Of a DNA stretch of 64,000 nucleotides, positions 10,119-54,439 are shown piece after piece. The DNA lies in the NCBI GenBank assembly GCA_017536445.1, contig JAFXHJ010000012.1, positions 2,348 to 66,347 on the forward strand, in the 5' to 3' direction. The translations under genes and the position numbers were made by a program. This stretch comes from Clostridia bacterium (GTDB lineage: Bacteria; Bacillota; Clostridia; TANB77; CAG-465). The notes under the pieces are model-generated. The model saw nothing but the letters and a program-made list of their open reading frames with translations. It was not told the origin of the DNA and searched no databases. Each line of letters opens with the position of its first letter. Within the stretch, counting starts at the first letter, position 1.

Positions 10119-10628
10119 TTATTCCTTTATTAAATGTACAAAATCTTCCACAACCACACTTCCGTCTTTAAGACTAATATATGGAGAATATGTATAATTT
10201 ATCCCCTTACGATTAAAATAAATCTCCGCATTAGGAAATATATCCGAGGCATTACATTTAATAAAAAAAGGCAACCTAGACATCATATAATATTCTTTGT
10301 CGGTTCCGCCATATTCGTTCATTAAAAGTTTGTTTATATGCGTTTTAGTCAAATATCTCGGAATTACAAGATAACATTCTTCTCCTCCCAAATCAATGAT
10401 AGCAAAATTTTCTTGTTCTTGCTTTGTGTAATATCTATCCACCAATGTATAATCATAATCTGATTCTAACCCACCTAAATAAATTAGGCCCAATACTTCT
10501 GTATCTTTTTCAAAAGAAATTCCTATTGCGTACTCGCTTTCCATATTTATATAAAATAAAAATATTGATATTGCCATCAATATTACAAATATTATTATTG
10601 TAATAGTTAAGCATATTTTCTTTTTCAT
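10119..10628 (-). CDS. hypothetical membrane-anchored protein
   Basis: N-terminal TM LTITIIIFVILMAISIFLFYI. 169 aa. Confidence 0.45.
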   Translation of the reverse strand: MKKKICLTITIIIFVILMAISIFLFYINMESEYAIGISFEKDTEVLGLIYLGGLESDYDYTLVDRYYTKQEQENFAIIDLGGEECYLVIPRYLTKTHINKLLMNEYGGTDKEYYMMSRLPFFIKCNASDIFPNAEIYFNRKGINYTYSPYISLKDGSVVVEDFVHLIKE

Positions 10629-10727
10629 ATTACCACTTCCTATTCAGTTACATTATATACCATATAACTAAAATATATCATATATTAACGTACAAAAAAA
10701 GATGTATTTCTACATCTTTTTTTAACA

Positions 10728-11294
10728 CTATTTATTCTCTTTGATTTCTTTTTTATTTGGCTTGTTTTTTTCTTTGACAGGAGCTATTAAATGTATAACT
10801 CCACCAACCATACTCATTATTGTTTCGGCATTTTTCATAGATATTCCTTTGCCTAGTGCTTTACCACCAACTGTTATAGCGGCTGTTATCGCACTTAGTA
10901 CAAGGCTCACTATTACAACATCTATTTCTAGTATCGCTGCAAGTTTTACCGCTATAAGTGCACCTGCACTACCAGATATAATACCACATATATCTCCTAA
11001 AAGGTCATTACATATGTTAGTTGCTCTGTCTTTACTTTTTAATAACCTTAACACTTCCTTTGCTCCGCCGTGTTTTTTAGCAGCTTTAGCGTGGAACGGA
11101 GCTTCATCACATGTTGCTATTGCCATTCCTATCATATCAAATAAAATACCTATAACAATTACTGCTACAAGTACACATATTGCTAATATTATATTTAATT
11201 TTTCTATTACTACGTTAGATACTCCTCCAAATAATAAAGCTAACATAAATGTTAGCATAAACGTAGTTATTATCCATTTTGTATTTTCTTTCAT
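10728..11294 (-). CDS. oapA: OapA-like small membrane protein (stand-alone DUF21/CNNM transmembrane domain)
   Basis: 188 aa with four hydrophobic helices. The segment AIATCDEAPFHAKAAKKHGGAKEVLRLLKSKDRATNICNDLLGDICGIISGSAGAL resembles the DUF21 core of CorC/CNNM Mg2+ transporter TM domains. It lies directly downstream of a roughly 520-nt structured leader with a strong promoter. Confidence 0.6.
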   Translation of the reverse strand: MKENTKWIITTFMLTFMLALLFGGVSNVVIEKLNIILAICVLVAVIVIGILFDMIGMAIATCDEAPFHAKAAKKHGGAKEVLRLLKSKDRATNICNDLLGDICGIISGSAGALIAVKLAAILEIDVVIVSLVLSAITAAITVGGKALGKGISMKNAETIMSMVGGVIHLIAPVKEKNKPNKKEIKENK

Positions 11295-11299
11295 TTCTA

Positions 11300-11828
11300 T
11301 CCTTTATACTATATATGATATGGCAATGCGATAAGTAAATTTTGTGGCTTGAGGTCAAGTCGGATTTCCCTACAAACTACTACTCGTTGCCTTGTAGCGG
11401 TTTCCCTTTAAAGCTCGCATCTAGGTGTCGCCACACTAGCTACATGATTACCACTTAGTCCACACTGTAATCCTTAACACACTCACTGTATTGTGACAGT
11501 CTAGAGGTTTTCCCTAACATCATTTCACTATCCTTATTCGCTTTTGCAAGACTAATTTCAAAAACATAGTATCATTTATCCCGAAGTCTCACGCACGACT
11601 AGCTACAATTATATAGTACTCTCTATATAAAGGTTTACACATTATGTGAAGCTGAAAGAGGATATTATATATATGCCATTATATCTTTACCTCGATCTTA
11701 ACCCTAATACTTACGCCCCAATCTGGGCGAATGCAGCATAAACACTAGGTGCCATTAATATGCTATATGATGGATTTTTAAGCCCACCTTGAGATAGGTA
11801 CTCTTTTGACTAGAATACTGTGCCATAC
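11300..11828 (-). ncRNA. ole: candidate OLE (ornate large extremophilic) RNA
   Basis: Roughly 520-nt GC-enriched non-coding region with no ORF. It is transcribed from a consensus promoter (below) and reads through into the oapA-like gene. Boundaries are approximate. Confidence 0.5.
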
Positions 11829-11835
11829 AATATAT

Positions 11836-11864
11836 ATTATAACATTTTTAAAAATGATTGTCAA
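11836..11864 (-). promoter_or_regulatory. sigma-A promoter for the OLE-like RNA / oapA transcript
   Basis: Minus strand reads TTGACA-17 nt-TATAAT (rc of plus 11859-11864 and 11836-11841). Confidence 0.7.
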
Positions 11865-11872
11865 ATTCAAAA

Positions 11873-11905
11873 CAAAAAGCATAACAAAAGCACCCTTTCG
11901 GGTGC
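11873..11905 (-). terminator. intrinsic terminator (bidirectional hairpin)
   Basis: AAAAGCACCC-TTTC-GGGTGCTTTTGTTT: a perfect 10-bp stem flanked by A-runs and T-runs on both strands. Confidence 0.7.
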
Positions 11906-11911
11906 TTTTGT

Positions 11912-12316
11912 TTATCCTACTCTATTCTTTCTAAGCCAGTTTACCATATATTCTTTATTATACTTATCATAAAGAATTTCGTTAAGCAGCTTCTCTTCAG
12001 AAATACAGAACGCCGGAAGAAGAATTACATTCGCAATAACATCCAATTGCTCTTCATCAAAACTTTGTTCCATGATCCGTCTTGCGACCTTATATGACCA
12101 TTTGTACTGATATCTTGAAAAGAGAGCTACTCTTTCTCTAATAGACAGAACTTTTTCTTTTCCAATACCAAGCGTTTCAACTTCTTCCAAACTAACTCCT
12201 TCTGTAAAAGCACGCGCTAGGATATTTCTATCACTCGAATCAGAAAAATTCCATATGAACTGTAATTCAGCGTCTGTAGGAACGGTATGAGGTTTAATTT
12301 CGAATTCTTTAGCCAT
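11912..12316 (-). CDS. hypothetical protein
   Basis: 134-aa ORF. Confidence 0.5.
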   Translation of the reverse strand: MAKEFEIKPHTVPTDAELQFIWNFSDSSDRNILARAFTEGVSLEEVETLGIGKEKVLSIRERVALFSRYQYKWSYKVARRIMEQSFDEEQLDVIANVILLPAFCISEEKLLNEILYDKYNKEYMVNWLRKNRVG

Positions 12317-12450: not shown

Positions 12451-14154
12451 TTACATTTTTTCTGGCGCTTCTATTCCAAGCATATTTAGGCCATTCTTTA
12501 ACACATATCCAGTTGCCTTAACTAGGGCTAATCTTGCCTTCCTTAAAGCCTCGTCCTCTACTATTATTTGACATTCATTATAATATTTAGAGAATGCACT
12601 TGCTACATCTATTATATATCTTGTTATAACAGATGGTTCATTTTCATTTGCAGCTTGTTTAAGCATATTTGGAGCTAACGCTAGAAGTTTGATTAACTCT
12701 ATTTCTTCTTGTGCAGTTAATAACTCTGCTTTAACATCTGCTTCAGTTGGTTCATATCCGGCTTTATTTATTATACTGTTTGTTCTTACATATGTATATT
12801 GTACATATGGTCCTGTTTCACCTTCAAATTTTAACATTTCATCAAGATCGAATATTTCATCTTTAATTCTGTTATTTTTAAGGTCGTTAAATATTACGGC
12901 ACCAATACCAACTGCTTTAGCAATCTTTTCTGCTTCTTCTCCAGTTTTTCCTTTAGCTTCTAATACTTGTTTAGCTTTTTCTATTGCTTCATCTATTACA
13001 TCTTTAATTGTTGTGCTTGCACCTTTACGTGTAGATAATTTTTTTCCACCTGGTCCTAAAACCATTCCAAACGGAACGTGTACTAAACCTGGTACATATT
13101 TTTCATCTACTATATATTTAGCAGTTTCAAATATTTGTTTAAAGTGTAGATTTTGTTCATAACCTGTTAAGTATAGACATTTTGTATAATCGTAAGTTCT
13201 AGCTCTATAAAGTATTGCTGCAAGATCACGAGTTGCATATGTAGTTGAGCCATTAGTTTTAAGTATCATACAAGGAACTTTTTCTGTTTCAAGTTCTACA
13301 ACTTGTGCGCCTTCACTTGGAACAAGTTTACCACTATCTCTTAACATATCTACTACTTCGCCCATTTTATCATTATAGAAAGCTTCACCGTTGTATGAAT
13401 CAAATGTTATACCTAAGATATCATAAATTCTTTTATATTCTTCTAGACTTAGTTCTCTAAATTTAGACCATAACGCTACTATTTCTTCGTCTCCTGCTTC
13501 AAGGCGTGCAAAGTTTTCTCTTGCTTTTTCTACTATAGCCTCATCTTCTTTAGCCATTTCATTTATCTTAACATATATTTCAACTAACTTTTTAATTGGC
13601 TCTTCTGTTAAATCTATATTTTGTCCAAATCTTTTATATCCTTCAATAACATAACCAAATTGAGTACCAAAATCTCCCAAGTGATTAATTCCTACTACAT
13701 TATATCCTAGTGCTTTATATATTTTAACTAAAGCAGACCCTATAACTGTTGAACGTAAATGTCCAATATGGAAAGGCTTTGCTATGTTAGGAGAAGAATA
13801 ATCTATACATATTGTCTTTCCTACTCCTTCTTCTAAGTTATAACAAGCATCTTTTTTATTTAATATATTTTTTACTGTTGTTTCTACTACAACTGTGTTA
13901 TCTGCAAAAAAGTTTAAGTATCCTGCAACTACTTCTACTTTAGAAACCCCTTCTACATCTCCTAGTTTCTCTTTTATATTGTTTGCTATCATTACGGGTG
14001 CTTTCTTAAACACACTAGCTAGCTTAAAACAAGGATATGCAAAATCTCCCATTTTGCTATCTTTAGGTGTTTCTATAGCAGCAAATACTTCATCTGTTTC
14101 TTTTTCTAATACTTTTGCTATAGCTTCTGCTATATTTAATTTTATACTGTCCAT
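12451..14154 (-). CDS. argS: arginyl-tRNA synthetase
   Basis: HIGH motif PFHIGHLRS and a DALR anticodon-binding C-terminus, 567 aa. Confidence 0.9.
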   Translation of the reverse strand: MDSIKLNIAEAIAKVLEKETDEVFAAIETPKDSKMGDFAYPCFKLASVFKKAPVMIANNIKEKLGDVEGVSKVEVVAGYLNFFADNTVVVETTVKNILNKKDACYNLEEGVGKTICIDYSSPNIAKPFHIGHLRSTVIGSALVKIYKALGYNVVGINHLGDFGTQFGYVIEGYKRFGQNIDLTEEPIKKLVEIYVKINEMAKEDEAIVEKARENFARLEAGDEEIVALWSKFRELSLEEYKRIYDILGITFDSYNGEAFYNDKMGEVVDMLRDSGKLVPSEGAQVVELETEKVPCMILKTNGSTTYATRDLAAILYRARTYDYTKCLYLTGYEQNLHFKQIFETAKYIVDEKYVPGLVHVPFGMVLGPGGKKLSTRKGASTTIKDVIDEAIEKAKQVLEAKGKTGEEAEKIAKAVGIGAVIFNDLKNNRIKDEIFDLDEMLKFEGETGPYVQYTYVRTNSIINKAGYEPTEADVKAELLTAQEEIELIKLLALAPNMLKQAANENEPSVITRYIIDVASAFSKYYNECQIIVEDEALRKARLALVKATGYVLKNGLNMLGIEAPEKM

Positions 14155-14471
14155 TATATTCCTCCATTTTTAGCATATTCTTTTATTACATTAAGAATTT
14201 CTTCTTCATTATCATCTGATGCAACTATATTACGTACTCTTGCTTTACACTTAGTACATACATATTCTATTTGCATTTGTTTCTTTCCGGTGTTTAATAC
14301 ATTTACTGGCCTTAAAAGGCCTCTACATTCATTTAACCTGTCTCCTGGTTCTATATCCACATGTAACGAATACAAACATTTATTACAGTGATCCCTAGAA
14401 GTATAGCCAAGTTTTTCAACTTGGCTTCCACAGTGTTTACAAATAAATGAATCATCGTTTTTTACAAACAT
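14154..14471 (-). CDS. small Cys-rich zinc-ribbon protein (RNHCP-like)
   Basis: CKHCGS...RDHCNKC...CTKCK cysteine pairs. Sits in an operon with argS. Confidence 0.55.
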   Translation of the reverse strand: MFVKNDDSFICKHCGSQVEKLGYTSRDHCNKCLYSLHVDIEPGDRLNECRGLLRPVNVLNTGKKQMQIEYVCTKCKARVRNIVASDDNEEEILNVIKEYAKNGGI

Positions 14472-14480
14472 GTAGCCTCC

Positions 14481-16148
14481 TTATATCTTTAAGCTTGCAT
14501 TTCCTATAAATTCTCTTACTATACTATCTCCTGGTATATCTTTAGTTTCAATTGGTAAGAACTTTTGTATAAAGTGATATAGTCTTCTTGATTCTGAGAA
14601 GTATTCACTTGATTTATCTACTTGAAGTAGTAATGGTTCTGCAAAAGTTTTTAATGCTCCAATTTCATAAACAAGACTTGTGTTAAATATATAATCTGCA
14701 TATTTAATATTTGGATATATATATTTAGTTTCACCAGTTCTTAAATTTGGCCACATAGCAAGTGTTCTTTCTACTTTGTGTCCTCGTGTGTGGTAGTCTC
14801 TTACTATTCTTCTTAACATTCTTGTATCTGTCGTAGACACTTTAGAATAATCATCTATATTAAGAGTTGTCATAGGTGCAATATATATTTTATATTTAAG
14901 TTTATCATCTATATCTTTTAACAATGCTGGATTTAAAGCATGTATTCCTTCAAGAACTATAACATCATTTGGTTTTAATCTTAAAGTTTTACCTTTATAT
15001 TCTTTTTCTCCAGTTACAAAGTTAAATTCCGGCATTTCTACAGTCTTACCATCATAAAGTGCAGCTATATGTCTGTTAAATAAATCTAAGTCCAATGCAT
15101 CTATTGTTTCAAAATCATATTCTCCGTTAGGTAGTTTGGGATTATCTTCTCTTTCTTTAAAGTAATTATCCATAGATACAACTATTGGGTTATATCCAAT
15201 AAGTTTAAGATTTATGCATAGTTTGTTTGCAAAAGTAGTTTTCCCTGATGATGACGGTCCCGCTATCATAAATAGTCTCTTAGTACCTTTTGTTTTAATA
15301 TCATTCATTAGGTCTGCCATTCTGTTTTCATGATCAGCTTCCGCAACTCTAACTATATCTGGCATTTTACCTGTTATAACTTTTTCGTTTATTTCTGGCA
15401 CATTTGTAACTCCAATTATTCTTAAGAAATCTCCATTCTTCTCAAATACTTCGTACAATGGACTTTCTGCAATCGTAGCATTAATTTTAGTTGGATCAGA
15501 ACGTTTAGGTAACATTAAAACAAATCCACGTCTAAATTTCTTTATTTCGAAATCTGGTGTACATCCGGTAGTAGGAGCAAGTATTCCATCAGTTAGACCA
15601 TATGTATCTTCTGCTTTGTATATTGTTACTGTTGGATGCATATACACAGAAATTCCTTTCAGTGCATTCGGATGTCCGTTATGTTCAAATAAGTATTTTG
15701 CTTCTTCGTAACTTACAACCATTTTTTCTATCTTAGAATTCTTTACAACTATATTTCTCATTTCTTTTAGAAGTTCTTCTGCCATAACATTTGTAAATTT
15801 CATATTTTCGCAAATGAAGTAAACAATACCATCTATTGTATTACAGACTTCTACATCAAGATTTGGATATAATCTTTGAAGAGCAATGTGTAATAAAAAT
15901 TTAACAGTTCTTACATAGACTCTATGCCCATCTTGATCTGTTAGAGTTATCTTTTCAACCTCACAATCATCCACTAATGGCACTTCTGCGCTTTTTAGAG
16001 CGTTATTTACCTTTACCGCCAGCAGATCTTTTATATCCGTTTTGTTACTTTTAAGCGCATCTAAAGCACTTGTTCCAAACTTAACATTTGCATCTTTACC
16101 ATTTTCAAATTTAACTTTTAATTTTTTGTTTTTTAACTCTTCTATCAT
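14481..16148 (-). CDS. uridine kinase / phosphoribulokinase-family nucleoside kinase with N-terminal TGS-like domain
   Basis: P-loop FMIAGPSSSGKTTFANKL plus a ThrRS-like N-terminal domain. Confidence 0.7.
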   Translation of the reverse strand: MIEELKNKKLKVKFENGKDANVKFGTSALDALKSNKTDIKDLLAVKVNNALKSAEVPLVDDCEVEKITLTDQDGHRVYVRTVKFLLHIALQRLYPNLDVEVCNTIDGIVYFICENMKFTNVMAEELLKEMRNIVVKNSKIEKMVVSYEEAKYLFEHNGHPNALKGISVYMHPTVTIYKAEDTYGLTDGILAPTTGCTPDFEIKKFRRGFVLMLPKRSDPTKINATIAESPLYEVFEKNGDFLRIIGVTNVPEINEKVITGKMPDIVRVAEADHENRMADLMNDIKTKGTKRLFMIAGPSSSGKTTFANKLCINLKLIGYNPIVVSMDNYFKEREDNPKLPNGEYDFETIDALDLDLFNRHIAALYDGKTVEMPEFNFVTGEKEYKGKTLRLKPNDVIVLEGIHALNPALLKDIDDKLKYKIYIAPMTTLNIDDYSKVSTTDTRMLRRIVRDYHTRGHKVERTLAMWPNLRTGETKYIYPNIKYADYIFNTSLVYEIGALKTFAEPLLLQVDKSSEYFSESRRLYHFIQKFLPIETKDIPGDSIVREFIGNASLKI

Positions 16149-18070: not shown

Positions 18071-18147
18071 GGGCCTTTAGCTCAGTTGGTCAGAGCAACC
18101 GGCTCATAACCGGTGGGTCCAAGGTTCGAATCCTTGAAGGCCCACCA
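18071..18147 (+). tRNA. tRNA with CAT anticodon, most similar to tRNA-Ile2 (lysidine, CAU) rather than elongator Met
   Basis: GGGCCTTTAGCTCAGTTGGTCAGAGC...GGCTCATAACCGG...GGTTCGAATCC...CCA. Close to Bacillus tRNA-Ile(CAU) GGACCTTTAGCTCAGTTGGTTAGAGC. Encoded CCA. Confidence 0.8.
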
Positions 18148-18176: not shown

Positions 18177-18483
18177 GGGCGGGTGTCCGAGTGGCTAAAG
18201 GAGGCAGACTGTAATCTTTGGTTCAAACCTAAATTTGCAGCTCATGCAAGTGATTGTGTGATGATAATCTGGCTAATTCGGGGAACTCTTAACAGGTAAT
18301 GCTGATGACAATCCCGAGCTAAAAGATTTAATCTTTGAGTGTAGAGACTTTATACCATGTATCTCCTATCGAGATAAAGAGAAAGTCCAGACTACAAACA
18401 TTATTTAATGGTAACGAAAGTTATGGTAGTAAGAAATCTGTTAGCGTACGCTTACGATGGTTCGAATCCATCCCCTCCCACCA
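18177..18483 (+). tRNA. tRNA-Tyr (GTA) interrupted by a group I intron in the anticodon loop
   Basis: 5' exon GGGCGGGTGTCCGAGTGGCTAAAGGAGGCAGACTGT (18177-18212). 3' exon AAATCTGTTAGCGTACGCTTACGATGGTTCGAATCCATCCCCTCCCACCA (18434-18483). Joined they give a class II tRNA with a long variable arm and anticodon GUA. One C4-U69 acceptor mismatch. Confidence 0.8.
18213..18433 (+). ncRNA. group I self-splicing intron (221 nt, no ORF) within tRNA-Tyr
   Basis: P/Q/R/S core elements are present: AATTCGGGGAA (P4 5'), AATCCCGAGC (P4 3'), GTGTAGAGACT (P7 5', identical to the Azoarcus tRNA-Ile intron) and AGTCCAGACTACAAAC (P7 3'). P6 (AAAGAT/ATCTTT) and P8 (TATCTC/GAGATA) hairpins are also present. The 5' exon ends in U, and an IGS GCAG can pair with exon CUGU including the U.G wobble. 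The intron ends in G. Confidence 0.75.
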
Positions 18484-18485
18484 AA

Positions 18486-18515
18486 TGCAAGTATTCAACA
18501 TACTTGTATTTTTTT
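18486..18515 (+). terminator. intrinsic terminator after the tRNA operon
   Basis: GCAAGTAT-TCAAC-ATACTTGT followed by TTTTTTTATTTT. Confidence 0.7.
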
Positions 18516-18708
18516 ATTTTCAAGTAGAGATTTAATCAATACATCAACCATTACTATTACTTCAAAATATTCAAAGTATAAAAGAACTCTATTTTAGTTT
18601 TATGTAACCTTTTACTCTCTTTTATTGCTATTTACCTATTTCTGTGATATAATATTCTCACTTTGATACAAAGAACCAAAAAATAATTATTTAAAGGAGA
18701 TTTAAAGT

Positions 18709-18891
18709 ATGGAGTTCAAAGTAGTTCAAGTAGAAGCAGCAACATCTTTCGCAGGCGCAATCAAAAAGGTTGAAAAAGAAGTAAACGAACTTCTTAAGGA
18801 AGGCTGGCAGTTAAGAGGTAATCTTAAGATCGTTCCTCACACCGAATCTACATATTTCGTTGTATATCAGGTTCTCACAAAAGAATCTTAA
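18709..18891 (+). CDS. DUF4177-like small protein
   Basis: 60 aa beginning MEFKVVQVE...LLKEGWQL. Extended -10 promoter TGATATAAT upstream. Paralogous to the next ORF. Elevated GC. Confidence 0.55.
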   Translation: MEFKVVQVEAATSFAGAIKKVEKEVNELLKEGWQLRGNLKIVPHTESTYFVVYQVLTKES

Positions 18892-18905
18892 CCAAAGGAG
18901 TTCAT

Positions 18906-19106
18906 ATGGAATATCAAGTAGTTTATGCACAAGGCGGCGAATTTTACAAAGTTGCCGAAGAGCTCGAGAAAAAGGTCAACAAGCTTCTTAAGGAAGGATG
19001 GGCCCTTCAAGGTGGTGTTACTCAATCAATAACAAAATACGAGTGGCATTTTATGTCTCAAGCAATGGTTAAAATGTCAGCCCGCAATGAGATACGTCAA
19101 CTTTAA
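18906..19106 (+). CDS. DUF4177-like small protein (paralog)
   Basis: 66 aa beginning MEYQVVYAQ...LLKEGWALQG. RBS AAGGAG. Confidence 0.55.
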   Translation: MEYQVVYAQGGEFYKVAEELEKKVNKLLKEGWALQGGVTQSITKYEWHFMSQAMVKMSARNEIRQL

Positions 19107-19122
19107 TCAAGGAGAGATACAA

Positions 19123-19731
19123 ATGACAGAACCTAAAAACTCAATCATTTGCCCAGTATGTGGCAAAACCGCTAAGCGGTTACCCATTCATGTAAATCCA
19201 CTTTACAGATGTGATGAATGTGGTTTTCTTTCAAGCGACGAAAACGTTGTAGACATCTCGTACAAAGATCATGTGTCCGCTCCACTTTCCAATCTTTATC
19301 CCCATAAATTTGTACTTTATGGATTCTATCCTACAAGTAATATTTCCGAGGAACAAATTACGATTCCTTCTATGGAATCTTTTTTGCAGGGTCTTAAGAT
19401 TAAAGACGCTACTTTACAAAATATCTTTATGACAAGATATTCTGCTATGGATGCATGTAAAATGTCTGCAACCTTAAACGACTGGAAAGAAACACAGACG
19501 CTTTGGTTTAACGGAGAACCTTACAACAGATACAGTGATGAATACACCGACCTCATTACAAAAGCCTACGATGCACTCTTTGAAACAAATGTTATTTTCA
19601 GAGAAATCGTACTTCCTAAGTTCAAGGGCAAAATCTTGATTCACACAATTGGCAAAGATTCTGAATCCGATACAGTTCTTACCGAAGCAGAATTCAGACA
19701 CCAGCTTAACAGACTTATGAAAAGGCTGTAA
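19123..19731 (+). CDS. hypothetical protein with N-terminal CxxC...CxxC zinc ribbon
   Basis: CPVCGK...CDECG motif. RBS AAGGAGAG. Probably one operon with the DUF4177 pair. Terminator hairpin at 19738-19770 (AACAAGCAGTAGTT-AAAACTACTGCTTGTT). Confidence 0.55.
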   Translation: MTEPKNSIICPVCGKTAKRLPIHVNPLYRCDECGFLSSDENVVDISYKDHVSAPLSNLYPHKFVLYGFYPTSNISEEQITIPSMESFLQGLKIKDATLQNIFMTRYSAMDACKMSATLNDWKETQTLWFNGEPYNRYSDEYTDLITKAYDALFETNVIFREIVLPKFKGKILIHTIGKDSESDTVLTEAEFRHQLNRLMKRL

Positions 19732-19781
19732 TGTAAAACAAGCAGTAGTTAAAACTACTGCTTGTTGCGTTTATTGTTCAA

Positions 19782-54058: not shown

Positions 54059-54439
54059 TCACATATTTCTAAAAAACTTTAAGCACTCTAAAAAGCTAGC
54101 GTTCCCACGCAAACCGCAGCTAATAATTACGGCATTTTTAATCTCATCTAAAACCTTTTTATCTACCCTTCCTATTCTTTCCTTTAACCTACTTTTATCT
54201 AACGTTCTAATTTGTTCTACAAGAATAATAGAGTCCTTCTCCAAACCATATTTATTTTTACTTATGCTCACATGCGTTGGCAATTTCTTTTTAACTCTAG
54301 AGGTTATAGGTAAAACTATTACTGTATTACTGTATTTGTTGCCTACATTGTTTTGCACAACAACAACCGGCCTAATTCCGGATTGTTCGCTTCCTACTAC
54401 CTCACCTAAATCTGCATAATATATATCTCCACGTTTCAT
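54059..54439 (-). CDS. mazF: MazF/EndoA-family endoribonuclease toxin, no cognate antitoxin gene evident
   Basis: MKRGDIYYADLGEVVGSEQSGIRPVVVVQNNVGNKYSNTVIVLPITS..VEQIRTLDK, very similar to B. subtilis EndoA. Own TATAAT -10. No MazE/NdoAI-like ORF on either side. Confidence 0.75.
   Translation of the reverse strand: MKRGDIYYADLGEVVGSEQSGIRPVVVVQNNVGNKYSNTVIVLPITSRVKKKLPTHVSISKNKYGLEKDSIILVEQIRTLDKSRLKERIGRVDKKVLDEIKNAVIISCGLRGNASFLECLKFFRNM

What the first reader, a model, noticed from the sequence alone, without database searches (positions are those of the whole stretch)
10728..11870. OLE-RNA-like 520-nt structured leader driving a DUF21/CNNM-type 4-TM protein (candidate OLE RNP locus)
A perfect TTGACA-17-TATAAT promoter launches a roughly 520-nt ORF-free, GC-enriched transcript that runs straight into a 188-aa four-helix membrane protein. 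That protein's core resembles the DUF21 transmembrane domain of CorC/CNNM Mg2+ transporters. This is the arrangement described for OLE RNA and its membrane partner OapA in anaerobic Firmicutes, where the RNP is linked to Mg2+, cold and alcohol stress. The flanking genes (argS operon, cmk/plsC) differ from the isoprenoid-gene neighbourhood usually reported. I cannot verify the OLE consensus from memory.
Basis: partly seen in the sequence, partly recalled or inferred. Interest (0 to 1): 0.7.

Follow-up and report, generated by a model that had tools for sequence, protein, structure and literature searches.

The report
Compact OLE RNA with its OapA gene
This is a real but already known kind of element, an OLE non-coding RNA made together with its membrane partner protein OapA, here in a shortened form from an uncultured gut Clostridia bacterium.

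Summary
Window 11842..11304 (-) matches Rfam OLE (RF01071) over the whole model at 286 bits (threshold 50, E 3e-80). A perfect, extended TTGACA-17-TGnTATAAT promoter sits directly upstream. The 188-aa gene 10 nt downstream is an OapA orthologue. It has four long helices and the OapA-specific DxxxD motif. It is 42% identical (E 1e-35) to the OapA of a classical ispA-OLE-oapA-dxs locus, and its predicted fold matches only CNNM/CorB/CorC transporters. Ten related genomes, all uncultured gut "Clostridia bacterium" MAGs, carry the same promoter-OLE-oapA unit. Eight of them keep argS, cmk or both beside it. Their sequence differences preserve the OLE helices.

The RNA is a reduced form: a 509-nt core with a mini P7, a short P8 and a P9 shortened by about 33 nt without its palindromic loop. 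It lacks the k-turn strand (AUCGAUGA) that binds OapC and the J6/7 CCGUGGAGAC motif. It keeps the OapB-binding P13 hairpin. Reduced OLE variants in uncultured gut lineages are already published (Fernando and Breaker 2024).

Verdict: a new member of a known class, of low to moderate interest.

The parts
11883..11912 (-). Intrinsic terminator ending the upstream 134-aa ORF. It insulates the OLE unit from the argS operon.
   Evidence: 13-bp stem with 6 GC pairs, followed by a T-run.
11836..11864 (-). Sigma-70 promoter: -35 TTGACA (11864..11859), 17-nt spacer ending in TG, -10 TATAAT (11841..11836). The predicted start is about 11829, 2 nt before helix P1.
   Evidence: 12/12 match. TTGAC(A/T)-17-TGnTATAAT is conserved in register in all 10 related loci. 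The start site is inferred, not measured.
11304..11842 (-). Full extent of the Rfam OLE (RF01071) match.
   Evidence: 286.1 bits, E 3.1e-80, model 1-616, not truncated.
11319..11827 (-). OLE RNA core, 509 nt, closed by helix P1 (11827..11822 pairs with 11324..11319).
   Evidence: P1, P2 and P3.1 were added by hand. They are 91.6% paired across 11 sequences against 26-43% when slid, and 5 pairs change on both sides. The Rfam helices are 85.8% paired against 34-46% when slid, and 24 pairs change on both sides against 2-8.
11769..11788 (-). P4 hairpin with an A-rich loop (CUUAAAAAUCC). This is a dimer contact in the published cryo-EM models.
   Evidence: Rfam alignment. 100% paired in the clade. 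Its role comes from PMC12265935.
11750..11761 (-). J4a/5, the position of the k-turn 5' strand. It reads AUAUUAAUGGCA instead of the consensus AUCGAUGAAG.
   Evidence: 10 of the 13 more distant OLEs keep AUCGAUGAAG (3 others could not be anchored and the Bacilli MAG L023 also lacks it). All 11 clade members and 5 further metagenome members of this variant lack it.
11703..11749 (-). P5/P5.1 with a GCCCA loop (11728..11724).
   Evidence: 20 pairs, 7 of them with compensatory changes. The loop is invariant.
11654..11698 (-). P6/P6.1 with an AAUGGCAU loop, complementary to the P5.1 loop (kissing contact).
   Evidence: Rfam alignment. P6.1 is 100% paired with 2 covarying pairs; outer P6 is only 60% paired.
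11609..11648 (-). Reduced J6/7-P7-P8 region: a 4-bp mini P7 (11648..11638) and a short P8 hairpin (11630..11609). The CCGUGGAGAC motif is absent.
   Evidence: 66 nt from the P6.1 loop to GUAGC, against 94-131 nt in the twelve more distant Clostridia-type relatives (78 nt in the Bacilli MAG L023). The P8 hairpin is nearly invariant in the clade.
11538..11599 (-). P9, shortened (65-nt segment against about 98 nt), without the GGCC palindromic terminal loop.
   Evidence: Comparison of folded P9 segments. The basal helices are conserved.
11420..11440 (-). P13 hairpin with a GCGA (GNRA) tetraloop and a single bulged U, the published OapB docking site.
   Evidence: Rfam alignment. The loop varies only as GCGA/GUGA/GCAA/GUAA, and 2 stem pairs covary. 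The site is defined in PMC7936274.
11304..11318 (-). 3' tail UCAUAUAUAGUAUAA between P1 and the oapA ribosome-binding site. There is no terminator here.
   Evidence: Identical in 9 of the 11 sequences, i.e. the window and eight relatives. Its function is unknown.
10728..11294 (-). oapA, 188 aa. RBS AAGGA at 11303..11299. Four transmembrane helices, a basic loop DEAPFHAKAAKKHGGAKEVLRLLKSKDR, and DxxxD at D97-D101.
10694..10723 (-). Intrinsic terminator of the OLE-oapA transcript.
   Evidence: Hairpin plus U7, dG -15.2 kcal/mol, z -5.6 against shuffles.

Best explanation
This is an ole-oapA locus. A conserved, near-consensus sigma-70 promoter starts transcription about 2 nt before helix P1. The roughly 510-nt RNA folds into the OLE architecture: P1-P3 close the molecule, P4-P9 form domain 1, and P10-P15 form domain 2. 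The same transcript continues, with no terminator, into oapA and ends at a terminator after its stop codon.

OapA is a small four-helix membrane protein related to the transmembrane CNNM domain of MpfA/CorB Mg2+ transporters. By analogy with Halalkalibacterium halodurans and the clostridial cryo-EM models, OapA dimers should bind the RNA and hold it at or in the membrane. The RNA-protein particle is then expected to help the cell cope with Mg2+, cold, alcohol and carbon-source stress, possibly by controlling OapA-mediated divalent-cation flux.

This lineage carries a pared-down RNA. It keeps the P4 loop, the P5.1/P6.1 kissing loops and the OapB-type P13 hairpin. It has lost the k-turn strand used by OapC, the J6/7 motif and the P9 kissing loop.

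Shown here: identity of the RNA and the protein, a conserved fold, a conserved promoter, and the operon layout. Inferred: the start site, any processing, membrane localisation and physiological role.
For: - Rfam OLE: 286 bits, full-length match.
- The same RNA lies directly upstream of oapA in all 23 relatives with an intact flank.
- Covariation within the clade supports the Rfam helices (24 pairs with compensatory changes against 2-8 in slid controls) and the long-range helices P1, P2 and P3.1.
- The promoter is conserved in register in all 11 sequences. No terminator and no other minus-strand promoter-like site lies between OLE and oapA. A terminator follows oapA.
- OapA: 42% identical, E 1e-35, to the OapA of the xseA-folD-xseB-ispA-OLE-oapA-dxs-tlyA-nadK locus of Sporotomaculum syntrophicum. 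D97, G100 and D101 are invariant in 39 homologues. The AF2 model has pLDDT 82. The top five Foldseek PDB hits are all CNNM-family: CorB 7m1t/7m1u (prob 1.00) and CorC 7cff (prob 0.98). CNNM is the only Pfam family hit, by 20 of 39 homologues.
- Published function and structure: PMC12265935, PMC11332333, PMC7936274, PMC9723947.
Against: - Nothing contradicts the identification.
- The physiological role is known only from H. halodurans, which has a full-length OLE plus OapB and OapC. No expression data exist for this uncultured organism.
- The bit score is about half that of full-length OLEs (527-534 bits).
- The k-turn sequence that is essential in H. halodurans is missing, so the mechanism may differ in detail.
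- The Pfam CNNM score is just below the curated cut-off, and the Foldseek E-values are modest (5e-3).
Confidence: 0.95

Rival explanations
1. The structured region is only a cis-acting 5' leader, such as a riboswitch or thermosensor, that controls oapA translation. On this view it is not an RNA with a function of its own.
For: OLE and oapA share one promoter and one terminator. Only 24 nt separate P1 from the ATG. A 15-nt tail next to the RBS is invariant.
Against: The RNA is a full-length match to OLE, a class shown experimentally to be an abundant RNP component that acts together with OapA (PMC12265935). No other Rfam family reaches threshold. In classical loci OLE sits mid-operon. A 510-nt RNA of about 20 helices far exceeds what a leader needs. 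The two roles are not mutually exclusive.
Confidence: 0.04
2. It is a decaying OLE remnant in a reduced genome. It is recognisable by sequence but no longer functional.
For: It has the lowest OLE scores among the loci compared (283-292 bits). The k-turn strand, J6/7 motif and P9 loop are lost, and P7 and P8 are shortened.
Against: Across 11 species whose OapA is only 66-97% identical, the RNA keeps 87% mean column identity and makes compensatory changes in P2, P3.1, P5, P12, P13 and P14. The promoter and oapA remain intact. A remnant would not covary.
Confidence: 0.01

Closest known systems
OLE RNA / OapA ribonucleoprotein of Halalkalibacterium halodurans (Rfam RF01071; Puerta-Fernandez 2006, Block 2011, Harris 2018, as cited in PMC12265935)
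   Same: The same RNA family by covariance model. oapA lies immediately downstream. OapA has four transmembrane helices, the DxxxD motif and a basic loop. The P13 GNRA hairpin with a bulge, the OapB site, is present.
   Different: The core is about 510 nt rather than about 610 nt. It has its own promoter instead of sitting inside a long isoprenoid/DNA-repair operon. It lacks the OapC k-turn strand, the J6/7 motif and the P9 palindromic loop. No oapB or oapC lies in the 64-kb window.
Reduced OLE 'variant 1' (short P7, P8, P9; typical of TANB77) and 'variant 2' (no P7/P8; typical of RF39) of Fernando and Breaker 2024 (PMC11332333)
   Same: Uncultured, low-GC gut organisms and a shortened J6/7-P9 region. 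The missing k-turn fits the reported absence of OapC in those clades.
   Different: Variant 1 is reported as often lacking the OapB site, which is kept here. Variant 2 is reported to lack P7 and P8 entirely, whereas mini versions of both sit at those positions here. Exact assignment was not possible, because their models and figures were not available and their score cut-offs apply to a different covariance model.
Clostridium acetobutylicum / C. botulinum OLE RNA dimers solved by cryo-EM (Kretsch 2025, PMC12286853; Wang 2025, as summarised in PMC12265935)
   Same: The P4 A-rich loop and the complementary P5.1 (GCCCA) and P6.1 (UGGC) loops used for dimerisation are present and invariant. The P3-region helices found number about 11 bp (P3.1 of 8 bp is well supported; the 3-bp P3 is not), close to the published typical 12.
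   Different: The fourth dimer contact, the P9-P9 kissing loop, has no counterpart here. The window's P9 terminal loop is not self-complementary.
MpfA / CorB / CorC (CNNM, Pfam PF01595) Mg2+ transporters
   Same: The transmembrane fold is related. It is the only Pfam family hit, and the top solved-structure matches are 7m1t, 7m1u and 7cff.
   Different: There are no CBS-pair or CorC_HlyC domains, since the protein is only 188 aa. It scores below the Pfam cut-off, has four rather than three transmembrane helices, and has the DxxxD motif that CNNM domains lack (PMC11332333).

Membership tests
OLE RNA (Rfam RF01071) | Covariance-model score above the curated threshold over the whole model | tested here: met
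   286.1 bits against a gathering score of 50, E 3.1e-80, model 1-616, not truncated.
OLE RNA (Rfam RF01071) | Multi-helix secondary structure maintained by compensatory changes | tested here: met
   In 11 clade sequences, 85.8% of cells are paired against 34-46% when slid. 24 pairs change on both sides against 2-8. P1, P2 and P3.1 are 91.6% paired.
OLE RNA (Rfam RF01071) | oapA gene immediately downstream | tested here: met
   The ATG is 10 nt after the Rfam match. The layout is the same in 23 related loci.
OLE RNA (Rfam RF01071) | Host in Bacillota, typically anaerobic or extremophilic | tested here: met
   The nearest genomes are 'Clostridia bacterium' MAGs from sheep rectum and other sources; the two next-nearest relatives are 'uncultured Clostridium sp.' MAGs. 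The window is a metagenome contig. The GTDB order was not determined.
OLE RNA (Rfam RF01071) | OapB site: P13 hairpin with a GNRA tetraloop and a single-nucleotide bulge | tested here: met
   GCUAG-U-GUG-GCGA-CAC-CUAG at 11440..11420. In the clade the loop varies only within GNRA.
OLE RNA (Rfam RF01071) | OapC k-turn (k-turn 1a/1b) built on J4a/5 AUCGAUGAAG | tested here: not met
   The window reads AUUAAUGGCA. There is no GA dinucleotide after a 3-nt bulge, and J6/7 CCGUGGAGAC is also absent. 10 of the 13 more distant relatives keep the J4a/5 motif and 12 of 13 keep J6/7. This feature is already known to be dispensable in some clades (PMC11332333).
OLE RNA (Rfam RF01071) | Dimerisation loops: P4 A-rich, P5.1/P6.1 kissing, P9 palindrome | tested here: inconclusive
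   The P4, P5.1 (GCCCA) and P6.1 (AAUGGCAU) loops are present and conserved. The P9 GGCC-type loop is absent, and the window's loop is not palindromic.
OLE RNA (Rfam RF01071) | Abundant stable RNA localised to the membrane | not testable with these tools
   This needs RNA-seq or Northern data plus fractionation.
OapA | Small protein with four transmembrane helices | tested here: met
   The AF2 model (pLDDT 82) has helices 3-32, 35-61, 88-122 and 126-154.
OapA | DxxxD motif and a conserved basic cytoplasmic cluster | tested here: met
   N-D97-L-L-G-D101. D97, G100 and D101 are invariant in 39 homologues. DEAPFHAKAAKK is shared with the OapAs of classical loci.
OapA | Sequence homology to an OapA from a classical ole locus | tested here: met
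   42% identity over 130 aa, E 1e-35, to the protein downstream of OLE in the ispA-OLE-oapA-dxs locus of Sporotomaculum syntrophicum.
OapA | Binds OLE RNA as a dimer | not testable with these tools
   This is a biochemical assay.
CNNM / DUF21 transporters (Pfam PF01595; MpfA, CorB, CorC) | Pfam score at or above the gathering cut-off | tested here: not met
   27.0 bits against 28.4. 20 of 39 homologues hit at E <= 1e-3.
CNNM / DUF21 transporters (Pfam PF01595; MpfA, CorB, CorC) | CNNM-type transmembrane fold | tested here: met
   The top five Foldseek PDB matches are 7m1t, 7m1u and 7cff, with prob 0.98-1.00 and TM about 0.5.
CNNM / DUF21 transporters (Pfam PF01595; MpfA, CorB, CorC) | C-terminal CBS pair and CorC_HlyC domains | tested here: not met
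   The protein ends at residue 188 and has no other Pfam hit.

The most novel reading that the evidence does not exclude
The window clade, together with the few metagenome contigs that share its P8 hairpin, may be a distinct minimal OLE architecture not captured by the published variant 1 and variant 2 descriptions. It has lost both strands of the k-turn switch (J4a/5 and J6/7, and so the OapC docking and the bS21-promoted k-turn rearrangement) and the P9 dimer contact. It has gained an AAUGRC element at J4a/5 that duplicates the P6.1 kissing-loop sequence. It keeps the OapB hairpin, and it is driven by its own strong promoter. If so, it is a natural OapC-independent OLE of about 510 nt. That would define the minimal functional core and would be a convenient target for structure determination with OapA.
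Probability: 0.3. Interest if true: 0.4.

Novelty: new member of a known kind. Interest (0 to 1): 0.25.

Why it matters
OLE is one of the largest bacterial non-coding RNAs whose biochemical function is still unknown, and it has recently been proposed to span the membrane. This locus adds no new principle. It does show which parts an OLE-OapA particle can apparently do without: the k-turn switch, most of P7 and P8, and the P9 arch tip. It also shows which parts are kept under selection: P1-P6, the P4, P5.1 and P6.1 loops, the P13 GNRA hairpin and the P10-P15 domain. In addition, the unit can run from a dedicated strong promoter outside the isoprenoid gene cluster. This is useful for annotation and for choosing a minimal construct. 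It is not a discovery of a new system.

Tried and rejected
- Sequence search of OapA against solved structures, as a single sequence and as a 39-sequence profile. No meaningful hit (only a de novo designed protein at E 0.96; nothing for the profile). Only the fold comparison showed the CNNM relation.
- NCBIfam scan of OapA and its neighbours. No family found for OapA.
- Search for oapB or oapC in the window. All small non-overlapping ORFs were concatenated and searched against PDB sequences, which include B. halodurans OapB and B. subtilis YbxF. Only MazF, HU, bL28 and an acetyltransferase matched. With those removed there was nothing at E <= 0.1. Pfam on ten further unannotated ORFs gave no L7Ae, KOW or CNNM hit.
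- The idea that AUCGAU to AUUAAU preserves a palindromic OapA site. Rejected, because other members of the variant read ACAAUG or AAAUGG, so only AAUGRC is conserved. Block 2011 could not be read.
- The idea that the upstream 134-aa ORF or the downstream 169-aa ORF is a lineage-specific OLE partner. Not supported. Both are poorly conserved or absent in close relatives whose ArgS is 81-98% identical, and each has its own transcription signals.
- Metagenome scan for the variant-specific P8 motif. Only 5 contigs were found, too few for a distribution analysis.
- The 197-aa plus-strand ORF 10741..11334 is antisense to oapA and was treated as an artefact.

Full report
**Observation.** On the minus strand, the region 11870..10690 holds the following elements in order.
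- A strong terminator at 11912..11883 ends a 134-aa ORF.
- A perfect extended promoter follows: TTGACA, 17 nt ending in TG, then TATAAT (11864..11836). It is the only 12/12 site in the 2.6 kb scanned.
- About 535 nt come next with no ORF of 60 aa or more. GC is 37-38.5% against 31.2% for the window.
- The 188-aa ORF lies at 11294..10728.
- A hairpin plus U7 terminator lies at 10723..10694 (dG -15.2 kcal/mol, z -5.6).

**Identity of the RNA.** A scan of the whole window against Rfam 15 gave two hits above threshold. One is OLE (RF01071) at 11842..11304 (-), with 286.1 bits against a threshold of 50, E 3.1e-80, model positions 1-616 and no truncation. The other is a tRNA. I transferred the Rfam consensus structure onto the window sequence and tested it on an alignment of the window RNA with the ten close relatives that carry a complete copy (A1).
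- 85.8% of cells form standard pairs, against 34-46% when the 3' partners are slid by 1-3 columns.
- 24 pairs show changes on both sides, against 2-8 in the slid controls and 14.5 +/- 2 in shuffles.
- The compensatory changes concentrate in P5, P12, P13 and P14.

The Rfam model does not annotate the long-range helices, so I added them by hand. They are P1 (11827..11822 with 11324..11319), two segments of P2, and P3.1. These are 91.6% paired, against 26-43% when slid, and five pairs change on both sides. The 3-bp P3 segment is not supported in this MAFFT alignment. The functional core is therefore 509 nt, from 11827 to 11319. It starts about 2 nt after the predicted transcription start, which is an inference from the -10 box.

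**Identity of the protein.**
- Pfam gives only CNNM/DUF21, at E 4.3e-6 and 27.0 bits, just under the 28.4 cut-off. This is the behaviour reported for OapA, which clusters as the next-closest group to MpfA under that HMM (PMC11332333).
- 20 of 39 homologues hit CNNM and no other family.
- Of the 1970 candidate proteins collected in the search of public genomes and metagenomes, 1251 match at E <= 1e-3. The closest is 92% identical, and all the closest are from metagenomes.
- The exact protein occurs on a 122-kb ENA metagenome scaffold and on two Logan contigs.
- The AlphaFold2 model (pLDDT 82, pTM 0.72) has four long helices plus short amphipathic helices in the basic loop.
- The five best Foldseek matches in the PDB are the archaeal CNNM protein CorB (7m1t, 7m1u; prob 1.00) and the bacterial CorC transmembrane domain (7cff; prob 0.98). 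Nothing else is credible. This reproduces, for this protein, the published OapA-CorB similarity.
- The OapA-specific DxxxD motif is present (D97-L-L-G-D101), and D97, G100 and D101 are invariant in 39 homologues.
- The block DEAPFHAKAAKK...GAK and the motif TVGGKAxGK are shared with the proteins downstream of full-length OLE RNAs.
- Against the OapA of Sporotomaculum syntrophicum, BLASTP gives 42% identity and E 1e-35. I confirmed by Pfam that this organism's locus is xseA-folD-xseB-ispA-OLE-oapA-dxs-tlyA-nadK.

**Relatives and context.** A scan of GTDB species representatives with OapA returned 30 loci. The nearest (97-66% OapA identity) are all uncultured MAGs: nine labelled 'Clostridia bacterium' (the one whose source is stated comes from sheep rectum) and two labelled 'uncultured Clostridium sp.'. 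Twenty-six of the 30 loci were scanned with Rfam. Two held only cut copies: L009, truncated at its 5' end, and L032, a 1.6-kb contig. Rfam OLE lies directly upstream of oapA in every one of the 23 with an intact flank.
- The window clade scores 283-292 bits at 533-554 nt.
- Other gut Clostridia score 366-420 bits.
- Desulfotomaculia-type full-length OLEs score 527-534 bits at 607 nt.

Within the clade the unit usually sits between argS and the DUF4364/cmk/plsC genes, although several relatives keep only one of these flanks. Variable genes are inserted on either side: the 134-aa ORF, the 169-aa ORF, an EamA transporter, an AMP-binding enzyme, and in L008 the RNase P RNA gene. The promoter TTGAC(A/T)-17-TGnTATAAT is conserved at a fixed distance from P1 in all 11 sequences, while the surrounding sequence diverges. 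That is better evidence for function than the consensus match alone.

**How this OLE differs from the full-length form.**
1. J4a/5. Ten of the thirteen more distant relatives carry AUCGAUGAAG, the 5' strand of k-turns 1a and 1b bound by OapC (PMC9723947, PMC12054373). Three others could not be anchored, and the Bacilli MAG L023 also lacks the motif. The window clade reads A(U/C)AUUAAUGGCA, or AAAUAAUGACA in its two most distant members (L013, L014).
2. J6/7. The CCGUGGAGAC motif, the partner strand of k-turn 1b, is present in the twelve more distant Clostridia-type relatives and missing in the clade. The distance from the P6.1 loop to the GUAGC before P9 is 66 nt, against 94-131 nt. It contains only a 4-bp mini P7 and a short P8 hairpin (UUAUAUAG-AGAG-UACUAUAUAA) that is almost invariant.
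3. P9. The segment is 65 nt rather than about 98 nt and lacks the GGCC palindromic loop seen in full-length relatives. Four close relatives have a palindromic ACUAGU loop, but the window has ACUAUG.
4. Retained features:
   - the P4 A-rich loop;
   - the complementary P5.1 (GCCCA) and P6.1 (AAUGGCAU) loops;
   - P10 to P12 and P14/14.1;
   - the P13 hairpin, with a single bulged U and a tetraloop that varies only within GNRA (GCGA, GUGA, GCAA, GUAA).

   The P13 hairpin is the mapped OapB site and also a tetraloop-receptor contact (PMC7936274).

A metagenome scan with the clade-specific P8 motif found only five more contigs, and all of them lack AUCGAUGA. These traits fall within the spectrum of reduced OLE variants described by Fernando and Breaker. 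They report short P7, P8 and P9 in TANB77, no P7/P8 in RF39, and OapB and OapC largely absent from those clades. I could not assign the window to variant 1 or variant 2. Their cut-offs apply to a different covariance model, and the consensus figures are not available as text.

**Partners.** No ORF in the 64-kb window resembles OapB or YbxF/OapC, or any other solved protein beyond MazF, HU, bL28 and an acetyltransferase. Ten unannotated ORFs gave no relevant Pfam hit. The rest of the genome could not be examined.

**Mechanism.** One promoter and one terminator bracket OLE and oapA, with no terminator or promoter-like site between them. RNA and protein are therefore made from one transcript. Whether the RNA is then processed is unknown. 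By homology, OapA dimers should bind the RNA and tether it to, or in the recent model through, the membrane. The particle should then contribute to Mg2+, cold, alcohol and carbon-source stress tolerance (PMC12265935, PMC10898510). The helices I could identify in the P3 region number about 11 bp. They are an 8-bp P3.1 with one bulge, which is well supported, and a 3-bp P3, which is not. This is close to the 12 bp quoted as typical for the proposed membrane-spanning element. These functional statements are inference from the family, not from this sequence.

**Rivals.**
- A purely cis-regulatory leader is unlikely given full OLE membership, though a secondary role of the invariant 3' tail next to the RBS cannot be excluded.
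- A decaying remnant is excluded by the covariation, the intact promoter and the intact oapA across 11 species.

**Verdict.** This is a new, metagenome-derived member of a known class, in a reduced form of a kind already published. Interest is low to moderate.

Noticed in passing
window 11304..11318 (-): The 15-nt tail UCAUAUAUAGUAUAA between P1 and the oapA ribosome-binding site is identical in 9 of the 11 sequences (the window and eight relatives), although the general OLE consensus shows no conservation there. It repeats the heptamer UAUAUAG that forms the 5' strand of the short P8, so it could in principle compete for the P8 3' strand.
   Followed up: partly
window 11750..11756 (-), and loci L004-L014, L034-L038: In this OLE variant the former k-turn strand is replaced by a conserved AAUGRC element. 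It is the same sequence as the P6.1 kissing loop (AAUGGCAU) and the 5' strand of P1 (UAUGGCA). No pairing partner or role was identified.
   Followed up: partly
window 11912..12316 (-): The 134-aa ORF between argS and OLE has no Pfam, NCBIfam or PDB match. It is only 47-74% identical between genomes whose ArgS is 95-98% identical, and it is absent from some relatives. It is a fast-evolving accessory gene of unknown function with its own terminator.
   Followed up: partly
window 10119..10628 (-): The 169-aa ORF downstream of oapA has one N-terminal hydrophobic segment and no family match. It is 40-62% identical in relatives and is often displaced by inserted genes, such as an EamA transporter in L004.
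   Followed up: partly
L008 6643..6971: In one relative, the bacterial RNase P RNA gene (260 bits) lies immediately downstream of oapA.
   Followed up: no
window 18071..18147 (+) and about 18300..19750: A tRNA-Met gene is followed by several small ORFs. The gene table of the source contig lists Phage_30_3 and DUF1737 hits there, which may mark a small prophage remnant or island next to the tRNA.
   Followed up: no
window 54059..54439 (-): A MazF/PemK-type toxin (E 3e-36 to solved MazF structures). The antitoxin was not examined.
   Followed up: no
window 14154..16148 (-): argS is preceded in the same orientation by a 555-aa PRK-domain protein (uridine-kinase-like) and a 105-aa RNHCP zinc-ribbon protein. 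This trio (PRK-RNHCP-argS) is present in six of the ten close relatives whose upstream flank was captured.
   Followed up: no
window 10741..11334 (+): A 197-aa ORF lies antisense to oapA. It is a compositional artefact of the hydrophobic, codon-biased gene on the other strand, not a gene.
   Followed up: partly
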